From: a virus
Virus record (IMG/VR): IMGVR_UViG_3300048074_000119
DNA length: 64,000 nt
Strand: one strand, 5' to 3'
Shown: piece by piece, positions 5,511 to 53,800 of the stretch
Position numbering within the stretch: the first letter of the stretch is position 1
Layout of the letters: each line of letters starts with the position of its first letter
The notes under the pieces: model-generated
What the model was told of the DNA's origin: nothing
The model's input: only the letters and a program-made list of their open reading frames with translations
Databases searched by the model: none
Made by a program: the position numbers and the translations under genes

Positions 5511-6193
5511 CTGACCTGACCGAGGAGTACATCCAGCGAGAGATCGCCTACGAGCGCGCGTGCCTGGTCGCGCTCGGGCTCGACCTCGTGGGGAACGAGA
5601 CCCTGGCCGAGGCCCGGGCCGAGTACAAGCGCGTGGCGGCGATGGACTGCGTGCCTCCCCTCGCCCCGTCGTGGCACAGCCGGGTCAAGTCGCGGCTAGC
5701 GAACTGGGCCGAGTGGGAGCGCGACCTGCCCCGCCCCCCGGCCAACAACCACTACGCCCACTGCGAGGCCTGTCGCGCCCAGGGCCTGGCCGAGAGCACC
5801 CCGCCGCAGGTGCACCTCCACGGGCAGCACGGCAACCACGACGACGCCTACATCGTCGGCGACCGGAAGGGGTTGCTGCGGCTCGCGGAGGCCATCCAGA
5901 CGGCCCTGGCAGGTCTGCACGACCAGACGCGCGGCCAGGGGGTGGCGGGCGTCACAGCCCGTGACGGGGAGGGCTACGCCCTGTACGTGGTGGCCCTGTC
6001 GGAGGAGCGCTTCGCGGGCACCCAGCTGCCCTACCAGCTCCATGGAGCCAGCCCGCCCGCCCCCGGTCGGCCTCCGTGGAGCCTGGTCACCCACGCCCCG
6101 GACGAGAGAGTCTTGGACGACAAGGAATGGTTCCGGCACCCCGCGGTCGACGACCACCGCCCGGTCCAGCAACAGAAGAAGGAAGACCGATGA
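5507..6193 (+). CDS. hypothetical protein
   Basis: GTGA overlap. Confidence 0.5.
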   Translation: MTDLTEEYIQREIAYERACLVALGLDLVGNETLAEARAEYKRVAAMDCVPPLAPSWHSRVKSRLANWAEWERDLPRPPANNHYAHCEACRAQGLAESTPPQVHLHGQHGNHDDAYIVGDRKGLLRLAEAIQTALAGLHDQTRGQGVAGVTARDGEGYALYVVALSEERFAGTQLPYQLHGASPPAPGRPPWSLVTHAPDERVLDDKEWFRHPAVDDHRPVQQQKKEDR

Positions 6194-6744
6194 CCACCGA
6201 ACAGATGCCCACGTGCTCCGCCTGCGGAACGATCCTGCCGACGACGGTTCAGGCAGCAGAGTACCGCGTCATCAGCAACAACGACCTCATCGGCTTTCTC
6301 GGGTCGGCGCTCGCGCATGCGGGCTGGCGCGTGCTGGCGACGTACAGCGAACCCATGCTGCGTCAGCTCTCCATCGCGGGGGTGTGGCGCGACACGTTCG
6401 TCCAAGAGCCCCGCTTTATCATCGGTCGTGGCGGTCGCGACGAGCTGATGGAGACCTTGAAGAGGAGCCTCCGAGAGGCGACCGACGAGAAGAGCAAGTT
6501 GAAGTACGAGGTCGAGCGGTTGCAGCGTGCCGAGAAGGTCTTGAGCGACCGCCTCGAGAGCACCGCCCGCGCGGCCGCTGACCGCATGAAAGAGGTGGAG
6601 GCCGTTCGCGAGGAACTCGCGCAGGTGCGAGAAGGCCACGAGCAGCAAGACGCTGCGCACCACCGACTCGAGGCCGACTTCGGCAAGGTGCGGGCGGCCA
6701 TCGGCGACCTCGCGCTCAAGAAGATCCTGGACGCGGCCAAGTGA
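6190..6744 (+). CDS. zinc-ribbon plus coiled-coil protein
   Basis: CSAC; long heptad C-terminus. Confidence 0.55.
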   Translation: MTTEQMPTCSACGTILPTTVQAAEYRVISNNDLIGFLGSALAHAGWRVLATYSEPMLRQLSIAGVWRDTFVQEPRFIIGRGGRDELMETLKRSLREATDEKSKLKYEVERLQRAEKVLSDRLESTARAAADRMKEVEAVREELAQVREGHEQQDAAHHRLEADFGKVRAAIGDLALKKILDAAK

Positions 6745-7121
6745 TCACGATCCACCAGTTTGTGCTCGGCATGATCCTGACCTCCGTGGGAACCGCGGCA
6801 GGATTGCTTGCCTTCGGGCTGTGGCTGAGTCGCCGCAACGACGCGGCAGCGGACAAGTCCGACAACGTGCACATCATCACGCGCGGCGCGCGCGCGATCT
6901 TGGTGGTCGATGTGAAGAGCGGGCACCAAGAGACCGTCGAACTGTCGCCCGACCGTGCGTTCGTGCTCGCCCGCAACCTCTCGGACGCGGCCAACATGGT
7001 CTGGCGCCGAAAGAAGGCGCCGACGCGGATGGGGGTGGCGAGGTTCGACATGCGCAAGCAACGTCGTCGCACCCGCGAGGAGGCGACACCAGCCACGGAG
7101 GAGGCCGAGCATGGGGTATAG
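6741..7121 (+). CDS. membrane protein
   Basis: N-terminal TM segment. Confidence 0.5.
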   Translation: MITIHQFVLGMILTSVGTAAGLLAFGLWLSRRNDAAADKSDNVHIITRGARAILVVDVKSGHQETVELSPDRAFVLARNLSDAANMVWRRKKAPTRMGVARFDMRKQRRRTREEATPATEEAEHGV

Positions 7122-7497
7122 CATCGGGTTCGACAGCAACACGAAGCGCGACATCGGCTACGGCGTGCCCGCGGTGTGTGACCACCCGGGCTGCAAGAAG
7201 CCGATCGACCGCGGCCTCGGTCACATGTGCGGCGGGTTGCAGACGGAAGGGAAGTGGAACAACGGCTGCGGCCTCTTCTTCTGCGGCGAGCACCTCCGCG
7301 TCACGGGCGTGTGCGCGCGGTGCTCCAGCGGGCGGACGGCCTTCAAGCCGAAGGCGGACGTCGACGAGTGGCTGCGTCACAAGCTGGCCGATGCCTCGTG
7401 GGGCAAGTGGCGCAAGGCGCATCCAGTCGAGGTGGAGAACATCCGGCGGCAGCTCGCGCGCAGGAAGGGAGGCGCCGATGTCGATGCCCGACAGTGA
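7111..7497 (+). CDS. conserved phage Cys/His-rich protein
   Basis: MGYSIG..RDIGYGVPAVCDHPGC..IDRGL motif recalled from phage hypotheticals. Confidence 0.65.
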   Translation: MGYSIGFDSNTKRDIGYGVPAVCDHPGCKKPIDRGLGHMCGGLQTEGKWNNGCGLFFCGEHLRVTGVCARCSSGRTAFKPKADVDEWLRHKLADASWGKWRKAHPVEVENIRRQLARRKGGADVDARQ

Positions 7498-7672
7498 GGT
7501 GGACGCGCTGATGCAGGTGCTCGAGGTCGCGCTCATCGGCACCTACGACGACGTGCAAGCGGCGGACGAAGTCGGTCGGCGCGACTACGGCCGCAAGATC
7601 GTCGGCGAGGTCATGTACCGGCAGATGCTGCCGAGCGTCGGCCTGCGGATCTTGCGCGGCGGTGAGCCGTGA
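7478..7672 (+). CDS. small hypothetical protein
   Basis: Coupled ORF. Confidence 0.45.
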   Translation: MSMPDSEVDALMQVLEVALIGTYDDVQAADEVGRRDYGRKIVGEVMYRQMLPSVGLRILRGGEP

Positions 7673-48490: not shown

Positions 48491-49023
48491 GAGCGATCTA
48501 CCTCACCCCGAACATCGAGACGCTGGCTGTGTCGGTGGGGCTGACCTTCCCGGAAGCCCTCCGCAACGTGGCGGCGCAGGGGGCAGACGAGAACCCACAG
48601 ATCCGCAGCCTCATGCCCGGGATGCTCGAGCTGACGATCAACCAGGTGAGCGGGCACGTTGCGTCACAGCACGAGCGTCTGGTGCAGACCCTCACGGTGA
48701 CGGACATGAACCGCGCGCGGGCGATCTACGCGATCCTGCACGACATCGCGCGCTGCAACGACATCGTCTGGAAGCTGCGCCGTGCACACGAGTTGTGGGG
48801 TGACGGGAGCGAGGTGGCGTCCGGGCAGAGAGCGGAGGCTGTCAAGGCCGTCAGCAGTCTCGCGCTGCTCCCGATCACGGACGGGCGGTTGCACACGTGG
48901 GCCGTCGGGGCTGCCGAGACGATGGCGGTGGTGCTGGTGCGGTCCCTGTCCACCATGCGGATGCTCGAGCCCGCGGAACGTCCGCCCAAGCAGATGGAGA
49001 CGGAAGAGGCCGAGACGTCGTGA
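48487..49023 (+). CDS. hypothetical protein
   Basis: ATGA overlap. Confidence 0.5.
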   Translation: MRAIYLTPNIETLAVSVGLTFPEALRNVAAQGADENPQIRSLMPGMLELTINQVSGHVASQHERLVQTLTVTDMNRARAIYAILHDIARCNDIVWKLRRAHELWGDGSEVASGQRAEAVKAVSSLALLPITDGRLHTWAVGAAETMAVVLVRSLSTMRMLEPAERPPKQMETEEAETS

Positions 49024-49472
49024 AGATCCTGACCTGCACCGAGGGGGAGCGCGAGCTGCTCGACACCGTCCTCGCGTGGTCGCGCGCCCTCGCCGCGTGC
49101 GAGAAGGCCCACGCCCAAGGCGACGAAGCGCGGCGCGTTCAGCAGGCGAACCTCGCCCACGGCACGCTGCACCCGCGCATGGTGACACTCGCGGCGCGGG
49201 AGAGCCGCTGCACGTGGGCGTTCCACCCCTCGTTGAAGGTGTCCCACGGGCAGGCGGCCTACGTGCCGCAGTGGATGATCGACCAATACGAGCGCAACAA
49301 GGCCCACCCCAACCGAGAGCCCGGGTGTCCAGGCTGCGACCTCTTCGGGATCTGCGCGTGGCACCTGACGCCCCCGGAGAACCGCGCCCGCCGCGGTCAC
49401 CCGCGGGCCATGGGCGCGGCCGCCGAGAAGCCGAAGAAGCGGTCCCGCGCGAAGGCCGTGGAGATCGGCTAG
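49020..49472 (+). CDS. hypothetical protein
   Basis: GTGA overlap. Confidence 0.45.
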   Translation: MKILTCTEGERELLDTVLAWSRALAACEKAHAQGDEARRVQQANLAHGTLHPRMVTLAARESRCTWAFHPSLKVSHGQAAYVPQWMIDQYERNKAHPNREPGCPGCDLFGICAWHLTPPENRARRGHPRAMGAAAEKPKKRSRAKAVEIG

Positions 49473-49484
49473 ACTGGGGGCACG

Positions 49485-50153
49485 ATGCCGTTCAAGGTCG
49501 GACCCGATGGCAAGCAGTTGCGTGGCCTGGCCTGCGTGCCCCCCGAGGAGCGCAAGAAGATCGCGAGCAAGGGGCAGAAGGCAGCTCGAGCGAAGGGCGG
49601 CTGCTACCAGTTCGACCACGAGACGGCGGTCCGCGCGGGCCACAAGGGTGGGGCAGCTCCGAAGCGTCGCCTGAAGACGATCGAGGAGGTCACGGAGCGA
49701 ACGGAGGTGGCGATCGCCTCCGCGAAGCACGACGCGAACGAGATGCGCCGTCTGATCGGCACCATCGCGGAAGAGGTCGCCGAGGTCGAGCAGATGGCGG
49801 CGGCCGCCGAAGGCCGTCCGGTGTCGCCCGAGCAGGCGGCCGCGGCGGAGGATGCGCTCGTCAAGTGGACCCGTGGGCAGCTCCCGGCGCCGGTGATGAC
49901 TGCGCTCGGCCGCTTCGGTGGAGCTCAGGACGAGTTCGCGCGTCAGGCCAGGGTGGCCGAGAAGCTCCGTCAGCAGCTCGCCGAGGTGCAGCGTCGCGCT
50001 GCGATGGAGGGCGCGCCTCCGAGTCCGGCCGTGGAGACGCAGGCGATCGCGCGCGACGTCGCCAAGATGGAGAAGGCGATCGAGGCGACGCCTCCGTCGC
50101 AGTCGGTCTCGCTCTTCCGTCGCCTGATGGGTGGCCTCTCGAACGTCGACTGA
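49485..50153 (+). CDS. KGG-motif stress protein fused to coiled coil
   Basis: PEERKKIASKGQK..F..E.A..AG.KGG. Confidence 0.7.
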   Translation: MPFKVGPDGKQLRGLACVPPEERKKIASKGQKAARAKGGCYQFDHETAVRAGHKGGAAPKRRLKTIEEVTERTEVAIASAKHDANEMRRLIGTIAEEVAEVEQMAAAAEGRPVSPEQAAAAEDALVKWTRGQLPAPVMTALGRFGGAQDEFARQARVAEKLRQQLAEVQRRAAMEGAPPSPAVETQAIARDVAKMEKAIEATPPSQSVSLFRRLMGGLSNVD

Positions 50154-50156
50154 GTC

Positions 50157-50450
50157 GTGGGGAGCGGGGAGGAAGAGGGCGGATCGCCCATCGAGCGACT
50201 GGCGAGGCTGCTCGAGCGGGCGGGAGCGCGGGTGACGCTCGACCACGAGCGCAGCACCGCTCGCCCGTGCTTCTTCTGTGGAGCCACGGCGGTGCGTCGC
50301 GACCTCTGCAAGGTCGGCGTCTGGGCAGAGGACCGCCGAGGCAACGTGCGTCGCGGCGACCCCATCGAGCGGCCCGTGTGCGCCGGTTGCCAGGTGGCAC
50401 ATATGGGTCGTTGTGGACCATGCGAGAGCGCTGGTGATCTGAAAAAGTGA
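50157..50450 (+). CDS. zinc-binding hypothetical protein
   Basis: CFFC, CAGC, CGPC. Confidence 0.45.
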   Translation: MGSGEEEGGSPIERLARLLERAGARVTLDHERSTARPCFFCGATAVRRDLCKVGVWAEDRRGNVRRGDPIERPVCAGCQVAHMGRCGPCESAGDLKK

Positions 50451-50631
50451 CGTGGCGCTCGCAATGGCCCTTGCGCGTTGGCAGAGCGTGATCTACTAGT
50501 GATGTCTGTCGGCGAACTGCGGTCGCCGTAACTCGAGGTCGTGGTTCACGGCACTCGAGAACCATCTTCGGATGGACCTCTCGCAATGCGAGACGTAAGC
50601 CCACAACATTGCTGATGTGATTCGGTTACCT

Positions 50632-52145
50632 GTTGAGCGGCCTGCGTGGTGTGTGGATTCGTTCAGGCGGTCGCCTCGCACCTCCCCGTGCGCTTGCTCC
50701 CAGCGACGTTGAGCGGCCTGCGTGGTGTGTGGATTCGTTCAGGCTGTCGCACAACGGTCGAACGGCCTGCGTGTGTGGATTCGTTCAGGGTCGGCTTGTG
50801 CCCCTTCGGCTCGCGGCCGCAGCGAGCGGCAAGTTGAGCGGCCTGCGTGGCGTATGGATTCGTTCAGGATGATGCCTCCTCTGCGTGCTGGACCACCCAG
50901 AACGGCCTGCGTTGTGTGGATTCGTTCAGGGTTACGCATGTGCTTGGTCGCTCGGCCGCTGCGTGTTGGTTGAGCGGCCTGCGTGGTGTGTGGATTCGTT
51001 CAGGGGGGAAGGCCGACAGTTCTAGGCCTGCGTGGTTGTGGATTTCATTCAGGGCCATGACCTGGACCAGCTCGCGGGTTGAGCGGCCCCGCGTGATGTG
51101 TGGATTCGTTCAGGGACAGGCTGGCTGACTCGTACCGCGAAGGGGGTTGAGCGGCCTGCGCAGGCAGGGTGAGGCCCAAAGCCACGCACCTCAGGCCTGG
51201 TGTTGAGCGGCCTGCGTGGTGTGTGGATTCGTTCAGGCTGGCGGGCCACCGACGGTGTGGTGTGTGGACTCGTTCAGGGCGTCGAGCACAGTGTGCCCCA
51301 CTGACCGCCGGTTGGATTCGTGCAGGAGGGCGTCCACGAATAGGCCTGTGAACACGCCGCCGACTGTTGAGTGCCGTTCAGGGGCGAGAGACCCGCGATG
51401 CAAGTATCGCGGGTTTGGCGGTGTGTGCGTTCATGGAGCCCGGAGAGCCTAGAGACCACGTGCGCGTCGTCCGGCCGTTGATTGTCTGCGTGATGTGACG
51501 ATTCGTTCAGGACACCCGGGCAAGCGAGACGCATCATCGAGGCCTTGAGCTGCCTGCGGATTCGTTCAGGGCGCGAGGCTCGTAGCCGCTCCCCAATAGG
51601 GAGGTCTGTTGAGCGGCCTGCGTGGATTCGTTCAGGAAGCACGCTCCACAGAATCAAGATCAACACTCTCCGGTTGAGCGGCCTGCGTGGTGTGTGGATC
51701 TGTTCAGGCTGTTGGGTGCGTATCTCAGGCTCAATGGCGGACACCCCTGGAGATCATGGTGACGTGGATTTCGTCAGGCGGCTGCCGCGCTCGTGGTTCG
51801 ATGGGTTCGGTCAGGGCGCTCCACCTCCATTCTCCGCGGCTAGTAGGGGTCGATGTGGATGCTCCGTCGCGGCCTGCGTGGGGTGTGGATTCGTTCAGGG
51901 CGATCAAGTCCGCGCAAAGTTCCGCTGTCAGGGAGGGGACGCTTCCGATGAGCGCGGTACGCCGCAGGGTCATCGACTAGCGAGCCATCAATGGGGATTC
52001 GTTCAGGTCGTCAACCTCCGCTGGTTCCGAGACCTGCTGATGCTGATGACCGCAGGAGCCCCGCCGGGATAGCCTGTGTGGAGAATTCGTCAGGACGTCG
52101 CGATGCAGTCCACCTCCGGATTGACTTGTGTGTGTGGATCGTAGG
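50632..52145 (+). CRISPR. degenerate CRISPR-like array, 36-bp repeat, no cas genes in window
   Basis: GTTGAGCGGCCTGCGTGGTGTGTGGATTCGTTCAGG exact at 50632, 50708, 50969, 51202; near-exact at 50833, 51078, 51673; about 15 further decayed copies; unique spacers. Confidence 0.75.
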
Positions 52146-52537
52146 GCGTCCGCTCAGGCTATCTTGCCTCACGAAGACTCGCGCAGGGCCAAGGCGCACT
52201 ACTGCAGGTCGCGCACGTGCTTGGTCGCGGTTCCGAAGGCGCACTACTGCAGGGACCTGACACACGAGCTCGAAGCGCAGGTGACGGAGTCACGGATCTT
52301 GGGCGAGCGGGCCTGCGCAGGTTCTACGCGATCGGATGCATCCCCCTTCGTGTCGTGCGGGCATACACAGCAGGGGTCCGGGCCAGTTCGCGCCAAGACG
52401 CAGGTCGCGAGTACGTGACCGCTAGGCAGGGCACCAGTATCAAGCACATGGCAGGTGGACGAATCACGGCTTGGCGGGCTAGACCGCGGCCTGATTCACA
52501 AGACCCCGCAGGTCGTAGCCTCGTGTCTCCGCGGCGC

Positions 52538-53044
52538 TCAGCCGCTGACGAAGTCGCGAATCTCGGCAGGGCCGAGTCCAGACAGTGCCCCCACGACGAC
52601 CCAGTGTCGTGCGCGCGGGTCACGGGTCGGGATGGTTGCCAGCTCGGGGTTCGCCTCGGTCAGTTCGTCGTAGAGTCCGTCCACCAGCACCTGCCGCTCG
52701 AGGTGGTCGCCCGCCTCGGCGAGCGCCATCTGGGCGCGGTCGGCGTCCACCGGGGAGACCGATAGGTGGTAGTGGTGCGACCCCATCGCGATCGACGGGC
52801 GTCCGCGAGGCGCCCAGCGTCGCACGAGGTCGAGCCACAGCTCGCGGTCGACCCGGAACGGTGTCCGGGCGGCCTGAGGGTCACAGTTCGCGCACGCGCA
52901 CCCCACGGGGTGGTGCACGACCAGCTTCTGGAGCAGCGGCATCGTGAGCCCGACAGCCGCGAGTGCGGTGACGACCATGGAGTCGATCTTGGCGTCGGCC
53001 GCCACCTGGACGCCGAGGGCAGAGAGCTCGTCGAAGCGGGTCAC
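52538..53044 (-). CDS. hypothetical protein
   Basis: CACANC; ORF in minus block. Confidence 0.5.
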   Translation of the reverse strand: MTRFDELSALGVQVAADAKIDSMVVTALAAVGLTMPLLQKLVVHHPVGCACANCDPQAARTPFRVDRELWLDLVRRWAPRGRPSIAMGSHHYHLSVSPVDADRAQMALAEAGDHLERQVLVDGLYDELTEANPELATIPTRDPRARHWVVVGALSGLGPAEIRDFVSG

Positions 53045-53053
53045 CGGACCATC

Positions 53054-53467
53054 CTACGATGCCCAGGCCGGGATCGTCCACGGAGGGTCCCCCTCGAGTC
53101 GTTCGGCCCAACGCCAGCCTGCGTGGCCGCCCCAGAGCTGCCAGGCGACCCAGCCGTGGGTGTGGTCCCGGTCCCAGCCCGGCCGATGGTCGACTTGGTG
53201 GCGACGGAACCAGTTCCGCATCATGCGGAGGGTCTCGCGCGGGATGCTGCCGCCACGCGCGAGCGCTCGCGCGCGCTCGAGCGCGCCCTCCGTCAGCCCG
53301 GCTCCCCCGAACCCTTCGTCCACGAGGCGGAGGCCGTCCGCGGCCGCCTTGGAGACCCCGGCGGGGATCTCGGCGACCGCGAGGCGGGTGGGGCGCACGG
53401 CGCGCACGGTCGACCGGCGCGCCCCCCGCCGCCGCTTGCGCGAACGCTTCTTCCGGACCGTGGCCAC
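53054..53467 (-). CDS. conserved phage protein
   Basis: G...RAR.LA......ET...M..WF.RH...AW.LWGG.AG..WA motif recalled from phage head-region genes. Confidence 0.7.
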   Translation of the reverse strand: MATVRKKRSRKRRRGARRSTVRAVRPTRLAVAEIPAGVSKAAADGLRLVDEGFGGAGLTEGALERARALARGGSIPRETLRMMRNWFRRHQVDHRPGWDRDHTHGWVAWQLWGGHAGWRWAERLEGDPPWTIPAWAS

Positions 53468-53476
53468 CCGCCGAGG

Positions 53477-53800
53477 TTAGCCGGTCTTCGTGCGGAGCGC
53501 GATCCCGTCATCGGCCAGGCGCTGGTCGCACCAGACCCTCGCGTCGGCCTCGGAGTCGCGCACGCACTCGACCGCCGGTCCGCGCAGGGAGCGAACCCGA
53601 GCGCACCATCGGCCGTCGTCCAGTGGGAAGACGGCAGCACACCAGACCTGAGGGTCGTCCAGAGTTCGCCCGCGAACAGAGCGCAACGAGCCCTTGGGCT
53701 CGGACCACGGCGAGGCCGTGGGCGGGAGGCTGTCGCGGACGACGGCGACATCGTCCCCCGAGAGCGTGGGGATAGCGGCGAGGATCTCGTCGAGGGTCAT
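53477..53800 (-). CDS. hypothetical protein
   Basis: Coupled ORF. Confidence 0.45.
   Translation of the reverse strand: MTLDEILAAIPTLSGDDVAVVRDSLPPTASPWSEPKGSLRSVRGRTLDDPQVWCAAVFPLDDGRWCARVRSLRGPAVECVRDSEADARVWCDQRLADDGIALRTKTG

What the first reader, a model, noticed from the sequence alone, without database searches (positions are those of the whole stretch)
50632..52145. Orphan CRISPR-like array with a polar decay gradient and no cas gene nearby
Seen: about 22 copies of a 36-bp repeat. Four are exact; others carry substitutions or internal deletions between short direct repeats (e.g. 51608 lacks TGTGTGG; 51366 is collapsed). Decay generally increases rightwards. Spacers next to intact repeats are mostly 36-43 bp. 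Repeat ends can pair (TTGAGCG/CGTTCAG). No Cas1, Cas3, Cas12 or TnpB-like ORF was recognised in the flanks. I cannot assign the repeat to a known type. Inference: a virus-borne array using host or distant Cas proteins, a repeat-decoy anti-CRISPR RNA, or a non-CRISPR repeat system.
Basis: partly seen in the sequence, partly recalled or inferred. Interest (0 to 1): 0.75.

Follow-up and report, generated by a model that had tools for sequence, protein, structure and literature searches.

The report
Phage CRISPR array, distant Cas12f-like effector
This is a real but partly eroded CRISPR array in a large bioreactor phage, and it is not an orphan: a shared structured leader RNA links it, through related phages, to a miniature Cas12f-type protein with an altered cutting site, encoded about 30 kb away in this lineage.

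Summary
There are about 24 copies of a 36-nt repeat at 50632-52145. Four are exact, decay increases rightwards (rho -0.59, p 0.002), and no cas gene lies in the 64-kb window.

It is a CRISPR array, not a decoy or an iteron field.
- A relative phage (about 88% protein identity) has a clean version at the same locus: 11 full repeats and 36-39-nt spacers.
- A close strain has different leader-proximal spacers.
- A 90-nt leader core is 100% identical across these phages.

Walking along the relative's 118.7-kb contig found a 529-aa Cas12f-like gene 31 kb from the array. Its 90% ortholog lies on contigs from the same three samples that hold window-identical array flanks.

The nearest homolog (47% identity) sits directly beside a 36-nt-repeat array. 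That array's leader is homologous to this one, with five compensatory base-pair changes in three hairpins. Array, leader RNA and effector therefore form one system.

The whole effector clade has His in place of the first RuvC Asp (36 of 41), while the Glu, the last Asp and the zinc ribbon are kept.

No protospacer, adaptation gene or host repeat was found.

This scan has already reported similar phage "dead or altered Cas12f" modules on other DNA, so this is a new variant of a known kind.

The parts
50451..50631 (+). Leader of the array. It lies between the stop of the 97-aa Cys-rich ORF and the first repeat.
   Evidence: No codon-phase bias. 97% identical in strain L008 and 85% in relative L005.
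50506..50595 (+). Conserved structured RNA core of the leader, a candidate tracr-like or scaffold RNA. Four hairpins: H1 50510-50528, H2 50532-50559, H3 50562-50575 (UUCG loop), H4 50580-50592.
   Evidence: 100% identical in window, L008 and L005. Homologous to the leader of the effector-adjacent array in L020/L021. All 24 pairs are kept and 5 pairs changed on both sides; 1 of 500 shuffles reached this, and slid controls gave 0. The covariance model finds it only in front of these arrays.
50596..50631 (+). Variable post-scaffold segment. It weakly resembles a same-sense degenerate repeat ('repeat zero').
   Evidence: It differs between window and L005 where the repeat variants also differ. The resemblance is weak.
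50632..51237 (+). Better-preserved, leader-proximal part of the array. It holds the four exact repeats (50632, 50708, 50969, 51202), full-length variants at 50833 and 51078, and shortened copies between them.
   Evidence: The five leader-proximal units are absent from strain L008 and run X15, which carry other spacers there.
51238..52145 (+). Eroded part of the array: truncated, internally deleted and substituted repeats. The 3' end GGATTCGTTCAGG is the best-kept part.
   Evidence: Several units are shared with L008, and some (diverged) with L005.
52146..52512 (+). Relic trailer: 11 units that keep only the repeat's last 5 nt, (T/G)CAGG.
   Evidence: 28 per kb against 2.7 per kb, 0 of 2000 shuffles. 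The trailer includes a variant copy of spacer 50931-50968 at 52207-52228.
50157..50450 (+). 97-aa Cys-rich (zinc-ribbon-like) ORF that ends at the leader. It is conserved at this position in L005 and L008. Its role is unknown.
   Evidence: No Pfam hit. Not similar to the ORF next to the L020 array.
52538..53044 (-). 168-aa ORF converging on the array. It served as the anchor for finding related loci.

Best explanation
The region 50451-52512 is the CRISPR locus of a phage-borne, adaptation-less, type V-F-like system. It consists of a leader with a structured RNA, an array and relics of older units. SHOWN: the array is conserved at this locus in related phages. It has canonical geometry there (36-nt repeat, 36-39-nt spacers). 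Its spacer content differs between close strains. Its leader core is an RNA-like element kept through compensatory changes. The closest homolog of the lineage's Cas12f-like protein sits directly beside an array with a homologous leader and the same repeat design. INFERRED: transcription runs rightwards from the leader. Each repeat folds into a hairpin whose 3' strand ends in CAGG just before the spacer. The 528-aa Cas12f-like protein, encoded about 31 kb to the right (about 20 kb past the window's end), binds the repeat-derived handle plus the spacer as its guide, with the guide on the 3' side as in all Cas12 and TnpB proteins. The leader RNA probably serves as a tracr-like partner. The complex then finds complementary DNA. 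Only the leader-proximal, intact units are likely to be functional in this strain; the rest is erosion by small deletions. The clade carries His instead of the first RuvC Asp but keeps the Glu, the last Asp and the zinc ribbon. The outcome at the target (cutting, nicking, or binding and silencing) is therefore open. I lean slightly towards binding without double-strand cutting.
For: Array and geometry. The same locus in relative L005 has 11 full repeats, six identical to their consensus, and spacers of 36-39 nt; close strain L008 has five 37-nt spacers. Spacer turnover: run X15 and L008 (about 97% identical flanks) carry other spacers at the leader end and share some inner units. Leader: the 90-nt core is 100% conserved where neighbouring proteins are about 88% identical. 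Effector: L016:12549-14117 lies on the same 118,738-nt contig, 31 kb from the array. It hits PADLOC Cas12u3 at 9e-39 and Cas12f at 1e-36. By PDB sequence search the best hits are OsCas12f and AsCas12f at 1e-22 to 1e-23, with TnpB only at 1e-5. The model (pLDDT 84) best matches AsCas12f, with a target-normalised TM-score of 0.71. The ortholog P0019 (90% identity) lies in the same gene order on contigs from the same three JGI samples that hold window-identical flanks L001-L003. Link between array and effector: P0020 (47% identity) lies 0.74 kb upstream of, and on the same strand as, an array with a 36-nt hairpin repeat ending GCAGG and a homologous leader. Five helix pairs changed on both sides and none is broken. 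The repeat differences between window and L005 (U31C, C29U, U27G, U21C) all keep or improve pairing on the + strand only. The gene is not an insertion-sequence TnpB: it sits in a tight operon with 4-11-nt overlaps, its synteny is conserved, it has no non-coding 3' region, and NCBIfam TnpB scores fall below cut-off.
Against: The effector gene is not in the window. Its presence in this exact genome is inferred from sample co-occurrence and synteny, not seen. No anti-repeat pairing between the leader RNA and the repeat stands out above background, so the tracr role is unproven. No protospacer was found in 50,697 phage genomes, 72,556 plasmids, about 125 kb of the phage lineage itself, or IMG/VR with three exact seeds. 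No cas1, cas2 or cas4 was seen in about 91 kb of the lineage, so the way spacers are acquired is unexplained. Only one effector-adjacent example was recovered: a second homolog's contig ends at the gene, and a third had no DNA available. Most units in this strain are damaged. RNA-library contigs cover parts of the leader and array only at depth 2-5, no more than the flanking genes, so transcription is not shown.
Confidence: 0.72

Rival explanations
1. Defunct relic. The array was once served by the Cas12f-like protein or another Cas, but in this strain it is a decaying remnant with no present function, and the strain differences are only differential loss and recombination.
For: Only 4 of about 24 copies are exact. 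Many spacers are 5-31 nt, which is too short. Internal deletions and truncations are frequent. No protospacers and no adaptation genes were found.
Against: The leader core is 100% conserved. Leader-proximal units are intact in every strain and differ between 97%-identical strains. The repeat ends, especially the terminal CAGG, are kept even in heavily deleted units. The effector's motif II, motif III and zinc ribbon are conserved at 89% identity between lineages.
Confidence: 0.15
2. The array is served by a host CRISPR-Cas system, or it acts as an RNA decoy (RNA anti-CRISPR) against one.
For: Phage-borne arrays and solitary repeats that mimic host repeats are known from the literature (my own knowledge). 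No cas gene lies within 50 kb to the left or 12 kb to the right in the window.
Against: The repeat was absent from one genome each of 185,579 bacterial and archaeal species, using two tolerant patterns. The single metagenome hit is a chance single copy in a bacterial chromosome. The phage lineage has its own Cas12f-like gene, and a homolog carries the same kind of leader and array next to it.
Confidence: 0.06
3. A non-CRISPR repeat field, such as protein-binding iterons, a partition site or an array of small regulatory RNAs unrelated to any Cas protein.
For: The spacing is irregular in this strain. The region lies between convergent genes.
Against: Relatives show strict 36 + 37 nt periodicity with unique spacers. 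Repeat changes preserve an RNA hairpin on one strand only. A homologous leader and array lie next to a Cas12f-like gene.
Confidence: 0.03

Closest known systems
Type V-F1 (formerly V-U3) CRISPR-Cas12f systems, e.g. AsCas12f1 (PDB 8j12, 7wju, 8dzj) and OsCas12f (9nzq)
   Same: A miniature effector (528 aa) with a Cas12f fold and a TNB zinc ribbon; these are its best sequence and structure matches. A 36-nt repeat with the guide on the 3' side. A structured non-coding RNA just upstream of the array, where tracrRNAs of such loci lie.
   Different: RuvC motif I Asp is His throughout the clade. The effector lies 31 kb from the array in this lineage. The repeat forms its own end-to-end hairpin, and no anti-repeat duplex was demonstrated. 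No adaptation genes were seen. The system is phage-borne. The protein carries about 100 extra residues.
CRISPR-array-associated putative nuclease-dead Cas12f cluster, and dCas12f-sigmaE systems (Hoffmann et al., Nature 2026, PMC13472631; structure 9n9c)
   Same: Cas12f relatives with a changed RuvC site. An HTH gene next to the effector. Covarying structured RNAs in the intergenic region upstream of CRISPR arrays are described there as putative guide RNAs (Extended Data Fig. 1a legend). 9n9c is a structural match.
   Different: Those proteins carry C-terminal truncations that remove part of the RuvC site. Here the protein is full length, motifs II and III and the zinc ribbon are kept, and only motif I is changed, to a conserved His. 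No sigma-factor gene was seen. The carrier is a phage, not Bacteroidetes. No promoter target was identified.
TldR, TnpB-like nuclease-dead repressors, some phage-encoded (Wiegand et al., bioRxiv 10.1101/2023.11.30.569447)
   Same: Phage-borne, TnpB-derived RNA-guided proteins with an altered RuvC site that act, or may act, by binding.
   Different: TldRs use a single fixed guide RNA next to the gene, not a CRISPR array. This protein is closer to Cas12f than to TnpB.
Hypercompact type V systems of huge phages (CasPhi/Cas12j, Caslambda; Cas14-clade proteins in soil huge phages, PMC11748809)
   Same: Large phages carrying a single small type V effector and an array without cas1/cas2. The repeats are about 36 nt.
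   Different: A different effector family (Cas12f-like of about 530 aa, not about 700-800 aa). The effector is not adjacent to the array. The RuvC site is H-E-D.

Membership tests
CRISPR array (generic) | Direct repeats of 23-55 nt regularly interspaced by unique spacers of similar length | tested here: met
   Window: 36-nt repeat; intact neighbours are separated by 36-43 nt, but many units are damaged. Orthologous arrays: L005 has spacers of 36-39 nt, and L008 has five spacers of 37 nt.
CRISPR array (generic) | Conserved leader at one end, degenerate repeats at the other | tested here: met
   The leader core is 100% conserved. Decay runs rightwards, rho -0.59.
CRISPR array (generic) | Spacer content varies between close strains, most at the leader end | tested here: met
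   X15 and L008 against the window: the leader-proximal units all differ and some inner units are shared. Differential loss cannot be excluded.
CRISPR array (generic) | Spacers match foreign DNA (protospacers) | tested here: not met
   No match in phages, plasmids, the lineage's own about 125 kb, or three exact seeds in IMG/VR. The metagenomes of the source habitat could not be searched.
CRISPR array (generic) | Transcribed and processed into unit-length crRNAs | not testable with these tools
   Only assembled contigs of RNA libraries were available, at depth 2-5 and with no strand or end information.
Type V-F (Cas12f) CRISPR-Cas | Small effector with a TnpB-like RuvC fold and a TNB zinc ribbon, closest to Cas12f | tested here: met
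   PF07282 at 1.8e-9. PADLOC Cas12u3 at 9e-39 and Cas12f at 1e-36. PDB Cas12f at 1e-22 to 1e-23. Foldseek AsCas12f at E 1e-25, target-normalised TM-score 0.71. The gene lies outside the window, at L016:12549-14117 and L017:3204-4790.
Type V-F (Cas12f) CRISPR-Cas | Intact RuvC D-E-D catalytic triad | tested here: not met
   Motif I Asp is His ('AVHLG'). Among 41 clade members the position is H in 36, R in 4, N in 1 and never D. Motif II Glu is kept in 35 of 41 and motif III Asp in 39 of 41.
Type V-F (Cas12f) CRISPR-Cas | tracrRNA with an anti-repeat that pairs with the repeat | tested here: inconclusive
   A conserved, covarying structured RNA lies just upstream of the array. No duplex with the repeat exceeds background.
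Type V-F (Cas12f) CRISPR-Cas | Effector encoded next to its array | tested here: not met
   31 kb apart on contig k127_4340. Adjacent in the nearest homolog's locus L020/L021.
Type V-F (Cas12f) CRISPR-Cas | Adaptation genes (cas1, cas2, cas4), present in some V-F loci | tested here: not met
   None in the window. None in the precomputed Pfam lists of L005, L010, L014 and L016. About half of a genome of probably 200 kb or more is unseen.
Nuclease-dead Cas12f / TldR-type RNA-guided regulators | RuvC active site inactivated, usually with C-terminal truncation | tested here: inconclusive
   One of the three catalytic residues is replaced, by a conserved His. There is no truncation, and motifs II and III and the zinc ribbon are kept. 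Activity cannot be judged from sequence.
Nuclease-dead Cas12f / TldR-type RNA-guided regulators | Guides match promoters of regulated genes; sigma-factor or HTH partner | tested here: inconclusive
   A winged-helix (LexA-like or HVO_A0114-like) gene lies directly upstream of the effector in three loci. No sigma factor was seen and no target was found.
RNA anti-CRISPR / host-mimicking phage array | The repeat matches the repeat of a host CRISPR-Cas system | tested here: not met
   0 hits in genome contigs with two patterns.
IS200/IS605 or IS607 TnpB | Transposon context: tnpA or element ends, with a guide RNA overlapping the gene's 3' end and a non-coding tail | tested here: not met
   The gene is packed in an operon and the next ORF starts 2 nt after the stop or overlaps it by 4 nt. 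The same neighbours occur in two phage lineages. NCBIfam guided_TnpB scores 76.7, below the cut-off of 100.

The most novel reading that the evidence does not exclude
The 'H-E-D' Cas12f-like clade (His fixed at RuvC motif I; about 1,260 detectable members, many in phage-like contexts) may be a distinct, untested branch of type V. In this reading it works with a leader-encoded scaffold RNA plus hairpin-repeat crRNAs, and it binds or nicks DNA rather than cutting both strands. Large phages would use it, even with the array 30 kb from the effector and without their own adaptation genes, to silence host or rival-phage genes. The persistent CAGG just 5' of every spacer would then mark the minimal crRNA handle.
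Probability: 0.3. Interest if true: 0.75.

Novelty: new variant of a known kind. Interest (0 to 1): 0.55.

Why it matters
An array that looks cas-less in a 64-kb window can be tied to its effector by comparative evidence alone: an orthologous clean array, a covarying leader RNA and an effector-adjacent homolog.

The finding adds a phage lineage to the small, still untested group of CRISPR-associated Cas12f relatives with a changed RuvC site. It also shows that the change is a conserved Asp-to-His substitution across a whole clade, not random decay, so a modified activity rather than simple loss is worth testing.

If the protein binds without cutting, it would be a 528-aa natural programmable DNA binder with multiplexed guides. 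It would also be an example of phage-encoded RNA-guided regulation or interference.

The erosion pattern, in which repeat ends are kept and middles are deleted, gives a natural map of which repeat nucleotides matter.

Tried and rejected
**Whole genome.** None is held for this window, and records behind the loci are not searchable.

**Window against phage and plasmid collections.** No near matches for 40-64 kb of the window.

**Repeat searches.**
- Viral contigs, two patterns: 0 hits.
- Genome contigs, two patterns: 0 hits.
- Metagenome contigs: 0 hits, then one chance single copy inside a bacterial chromosome, L009.
- Rfam: nothing in the region even at E 5.

**Relatives in IMG/VR.** Flank proteins g86 and g87 have none. 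The effector profile has none either.

**Exact look-up of a window-end protein.** Failed.

**Stop-codon recoding.** Considered because three ORFs lie in one frame on each side of the array. Rejected because the separating stops are TAG, TGA and TAA.

**tRNA-like anti-repeat (note e1-5356826).** 331 places in the window reach the same criterion of 14 of 15 pairs with G-U allowed, so it is at chance level.

**Anti-repeat or tracr search by duplex energy.** Run over the leader and about 80 kb of the lineage. Nothing stood out above the -45 kcal/mol background of this G+C-rich DNA.

**Post-scaffold segment as a guide.** No match in the sequence held.

**Protospacer searches.** All negative.

**ORFs next to the arrays.** The window's 97-aa and 222-aa ORFs, L020's 186-aa ORF and L017's 218-aa ORF are not homologous to each other.

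**Further effector-adjacent examples.** P0022's contig had no DNA available. P0021's contig ends 80 nt after the gene.

**RNA-library contigs (X11, X14).** They cover bits of the leader, array and flanks at depth 2-5. This is not evidence of transcription.

**Promoter scan.** No sigma-70-like site in the leader.
Full report
**Observation**

A local alignment of the 36-nt consensus GTTGAGCGGCCTGCGTGGTGTGTGGATTCGTTCAGG against 50000-53000 finds 24 copies, all on the + strand, between 50632 and 52145. Four are exact: 50632, 50708, 50969 and 51202. Its 17-nt 3' part occurs 15 times with up to 2 mismatches, against 0.02 expected, and nowhere else in the window.

The copy at 51608 has a 7-nt internal deletion. 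The copy near 51366 is collapsed. Copy quality falls rightwards (Spearman -0.59, p 0.002). Gaps next to intact repeats are 36-43 nt, but elsewhere they are 5-92 nt.

Codon-phase analysis shows that 50451-52537 is non-coding and lies between convergent genes.

The repeat-derived region is longer than reported. The stretch 52146-52512 holds 11 (T/G)CAGG motifs, the repeat's last five bases, 21-57 nt apart. That is ten times the density elsewhere, and none of 2000 shuffles reached it.

**Context**

The window has 67% G+C. It carries tightly packed small genes, DnaB, RuvA, DUF5131, DUF1643, a D12 methylase, an M16 peptidase, a VWA protein and six Rfam tRNAs. This is a large phage, as earlier notes of this scan also concluded.

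No whole genome is held. Bioreactor metagenomes hold the region.

All 104 ORFs were scanned against PADLOC and NCBIfam. No Cas family appeared, any hidden hit is weaker than E 1.6e-6, and the largest protein is 627 aa. The statement "no cas gene nearby" is therefore true for the window.

**The array is a real, evolving CRISPR array**

The protein next to the array (52538-53044, minus strand) led to related contigs.

- *L005.* This is part of a 118,738-nt ENA contig from a phage whose proteins are about 88% identical. The same intergenic position holds a clean array of 11 full-length copies of GTTGAGCGGCCTGCGTGGTGCGTGAAGTTGCTCAGG, six of them identical to that consensus. Spacers are 36-39 nt, and a degenerate trailer follows.
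- *L008.* This close strain has a leader 97% identical to the window's. It has four exact repeats and five 37-nt spacers.
- *Window against L008.* The five leader-proximal units are all different. Several inner units are shared, some with small indels. Each strain also has inner units the other lacks.
- *Run X15.* An independent 2020 run shows the same L008-type spacers.
- *Older units.* Some are shared, in diverged form, even with L005.

This is the behaviour of a vertically inherited CRISPR array with turnover at the leader end and erosion elsewhere. Differential loss could explain part of it.

**The repeat is an RNA hairpin on the + strand**

The window repeat folds at -9.5 kcal/mol and the L005 repeat at -13.5 kcal/mol, with the two ends paired. 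The complementary strands fold at -2.0 and -7.2 kcal/mol.

Four of the differences between the two repeat variants fall at positions that pair in the folds, and each keeps or improves the pairing there (U31C, C29U, U27G, U21C). They would be A-C mismatches on the other strand.

Together with the position of the leader and the direction of decay, this sets transcription rightwards. The spacer then lies 3' of the repeat's CAGG end.

Eroded copies keep the 3' end best. Internally deleted copies keep both ends.

**The leader carries a conserved structured RNA**

A 90-nt core (50506-50595) is 100% identical in the window, L008 and L005. It is therefore more conserved than the flanking genes. It folds into four hairpins.

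**The effector**

I walked rightwards along the ENA contig with exact-protein look-ups. This found a gene for a 522-529-aa protein (L016:12549-14117; P0018) 31 kb from the array, on the strand on which the array is read. That position is about 20 kb beyond the end of the window's equivalent.

What it matches:
- Pfam Cas12f1-like TNB.
- PADLOC Cas12u3 at 9e-39 and Cas12f at 1e-36.
- By sequence, OsCas12f and AsCas12f in the PDB at 1e-22 to 1e-23, with TnpB only at 1e-5.
- By structure, an AlphaFold model (pLDDT 84, pTM 0.75) matches AsCas12f best, with Foldseek E 1e-25 and a target-normalised TM-score of 0.71. Other Cas12f proteins and dCas12f follow, and TnpB ranks lower.
- NCBIfam TnpB and Cas12f2 models are hit only below their cut-offs.

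It is not an insertion-sequence TnpB. It sits in a tight operon after a LexA-like winged-helix gene. The next ORF follows within 2 nt or overlaps it, and the neighbours are the same in two phage lineages.

Its 90% ortholog P0019 is found, in the same gene order, on JGI contigs from samples 3300048564, 3300048073 and 3300049436. These are the same three samples that hold contigs identical to the window's array flank. I therefore infer, but have not seen, that the window's phage encodes it.

**The link between array and effector**

An exhaustive search found a small family: 1,264 hits among 1.8 billion representatives. The nearest member outside the lineage is P0020 (47% identity). It lies on two 3-kb contigs with this order on one strand: winged-helix gene, effector, a 186-aa ORF, a 180-nt leader, then a CRISPR array.

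That array has a 36-nt hairpin repeat, GTCGCGAACGATCCTGGAACGAGAGATCGTTGCAGG, which also ends in GCAGG. Its spacers are 35-41 nt, after a first one of 65 nt.

Its leader is homologous to the window's leader core. In hairpins H1-H3 all 24 pairs are kept in every sequence, and five pairs changed on both sides. One of 500 shuffles reached this, and the slid controls gave no such pair and 25-44% pairing.

A covariance model of this RNA finds it only in front of these arrays.

So effector, leader RNA and array form one system. In the window's lineage the effector gene has simply come to lie far from the array.

This rests on one independent adjacent locus. Two further attempts gave no usable downstream DNA.

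**The altered active site**

In the alignments to Cas12f structures, the RuvC motif I Asp aligns with His ('AVHLG'). Among the 41 closest family members this position is His in 36, Arg in 4, Asn in 1 and never Asp. Motif II Glu is kept in 35, motif III Asp in 39, and the four zinc-ribbon Cys in all.

This is a fixed substitution, not decay. Sequence alone cannot say whether it abolishes DNA cutting, changes it, or leaves only RNA processing.

**Comparison with the literature and with this scan**

Hoffmann et al. [quoted passage not shown] Their dCas12f proteins are C-terminally truncated, and most are sigma-factor-linked. That is not the case here.

This scan has already reported phage modules with dead or altered Cas12f on other DNA (e1-5354919, e1-3410345, e1-5403747). 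I found those notes after reaching my reading. They agree with it but are not independent evidence.

**What remains open**

- No anti-repeat pairing between the leader RNA and the repeat rises above the high background of this G+C-rich DNA.
- The tRNA-like "anti-repeat" at 25028-25042 (e1-5356826) is at chance level: 331 places in the window meet the same criterion.
- No protospacer was found in phages, plasmids, the lineage's own about 125 kb, or IMG/VR with three exact seeds.
- No adaptation gene was seen in about 91 kb of the lineage.
- The repeat occurs in none of 185,579 species' genomes. This argues against borrowing host Cas proteins or decoying them.
- RNA-library contigs touch the locus only at trivial depth.
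- The persistence of CAGG in the oldest relics, and copies of leader hairpins H1-H3 on two other contigs of run X15, are unexplained.

**Verdict**

The array is a genuine, partly eroded CRISPR array of a phage-borne type V-F-like system with a leader-encoded structured RNA and a distant Cas12f-like effector that carries an H-E-D RuvC site (confidence about 0.7).

It fails two defining features of canonical type V-F: the D-E-D triad and effector adjacency. I therefore file it as a new variant of a known kind, not as a plain member.

Noticed in passing
window 52146-52512: The trailer beyond the reported end keeps only the repeat's last five bases, (T/G)CAGG: 11 times, 21-57 nt apart. Internally deleted repeats elsewhere also keep both ends. 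This suggests selection on the nucleotides just 5' of each spacer, or a biased deletion process.
   Followed up: partly
window 50508-50576 (run X15): Leader hairpins H1-H3 also lie on two other contigs of run X15 (37,215 and 11,120 nt), with 3-7 changes and unrelated flanks. Further copies of this scaffold RNA exist elsewhere, either at a second locus or in another phage.
   Followed up: no
window 50931-50968 and 52207-52228; L008 trailer: A leader-proximal spacer and two trailer relics are variants of one sequence (core CGCA-Y-R-TGCT-K-GGTCGC). Either the same target was sampled repeatedly or this is an old duplication.
   Followed up: no
window 50157-50450 (+): A 97-aa Cys-rich, zinc-ribbon-like ORF ends exactly at the leader and is conserved there in L005 and L008. 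It has no Pfam family.
   Followed up: partly
window 48897-50450 (+) and 52538-53800 (-): On each side of the array three consecutive ORFs lie in one reading frame, separated by single stops. The stops are TAG, TGA and TAA, so this is coincidence of packing and not stop-codon recoding.
   Followed up: yes
L016:11804-12535, L017:2594-3214, L020:259-585: A winged-helix DNA-binding gene (LexA-like or HVO_A0114-like) directly precedes and overlaps the Cas12f-like gene in three loci. This recalls the HTH association of dCas12f loci in the literature.
   Followed up: partly
L022:2377-3453 and 5913-7568: Another clade member (P0021, 41% identity) lies on a phage-like contig near a ParB_N gene. The contig ends 80 nt after the gene, so its array, if any, is unseen.
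   Followed up: partly
   Followed up: yes
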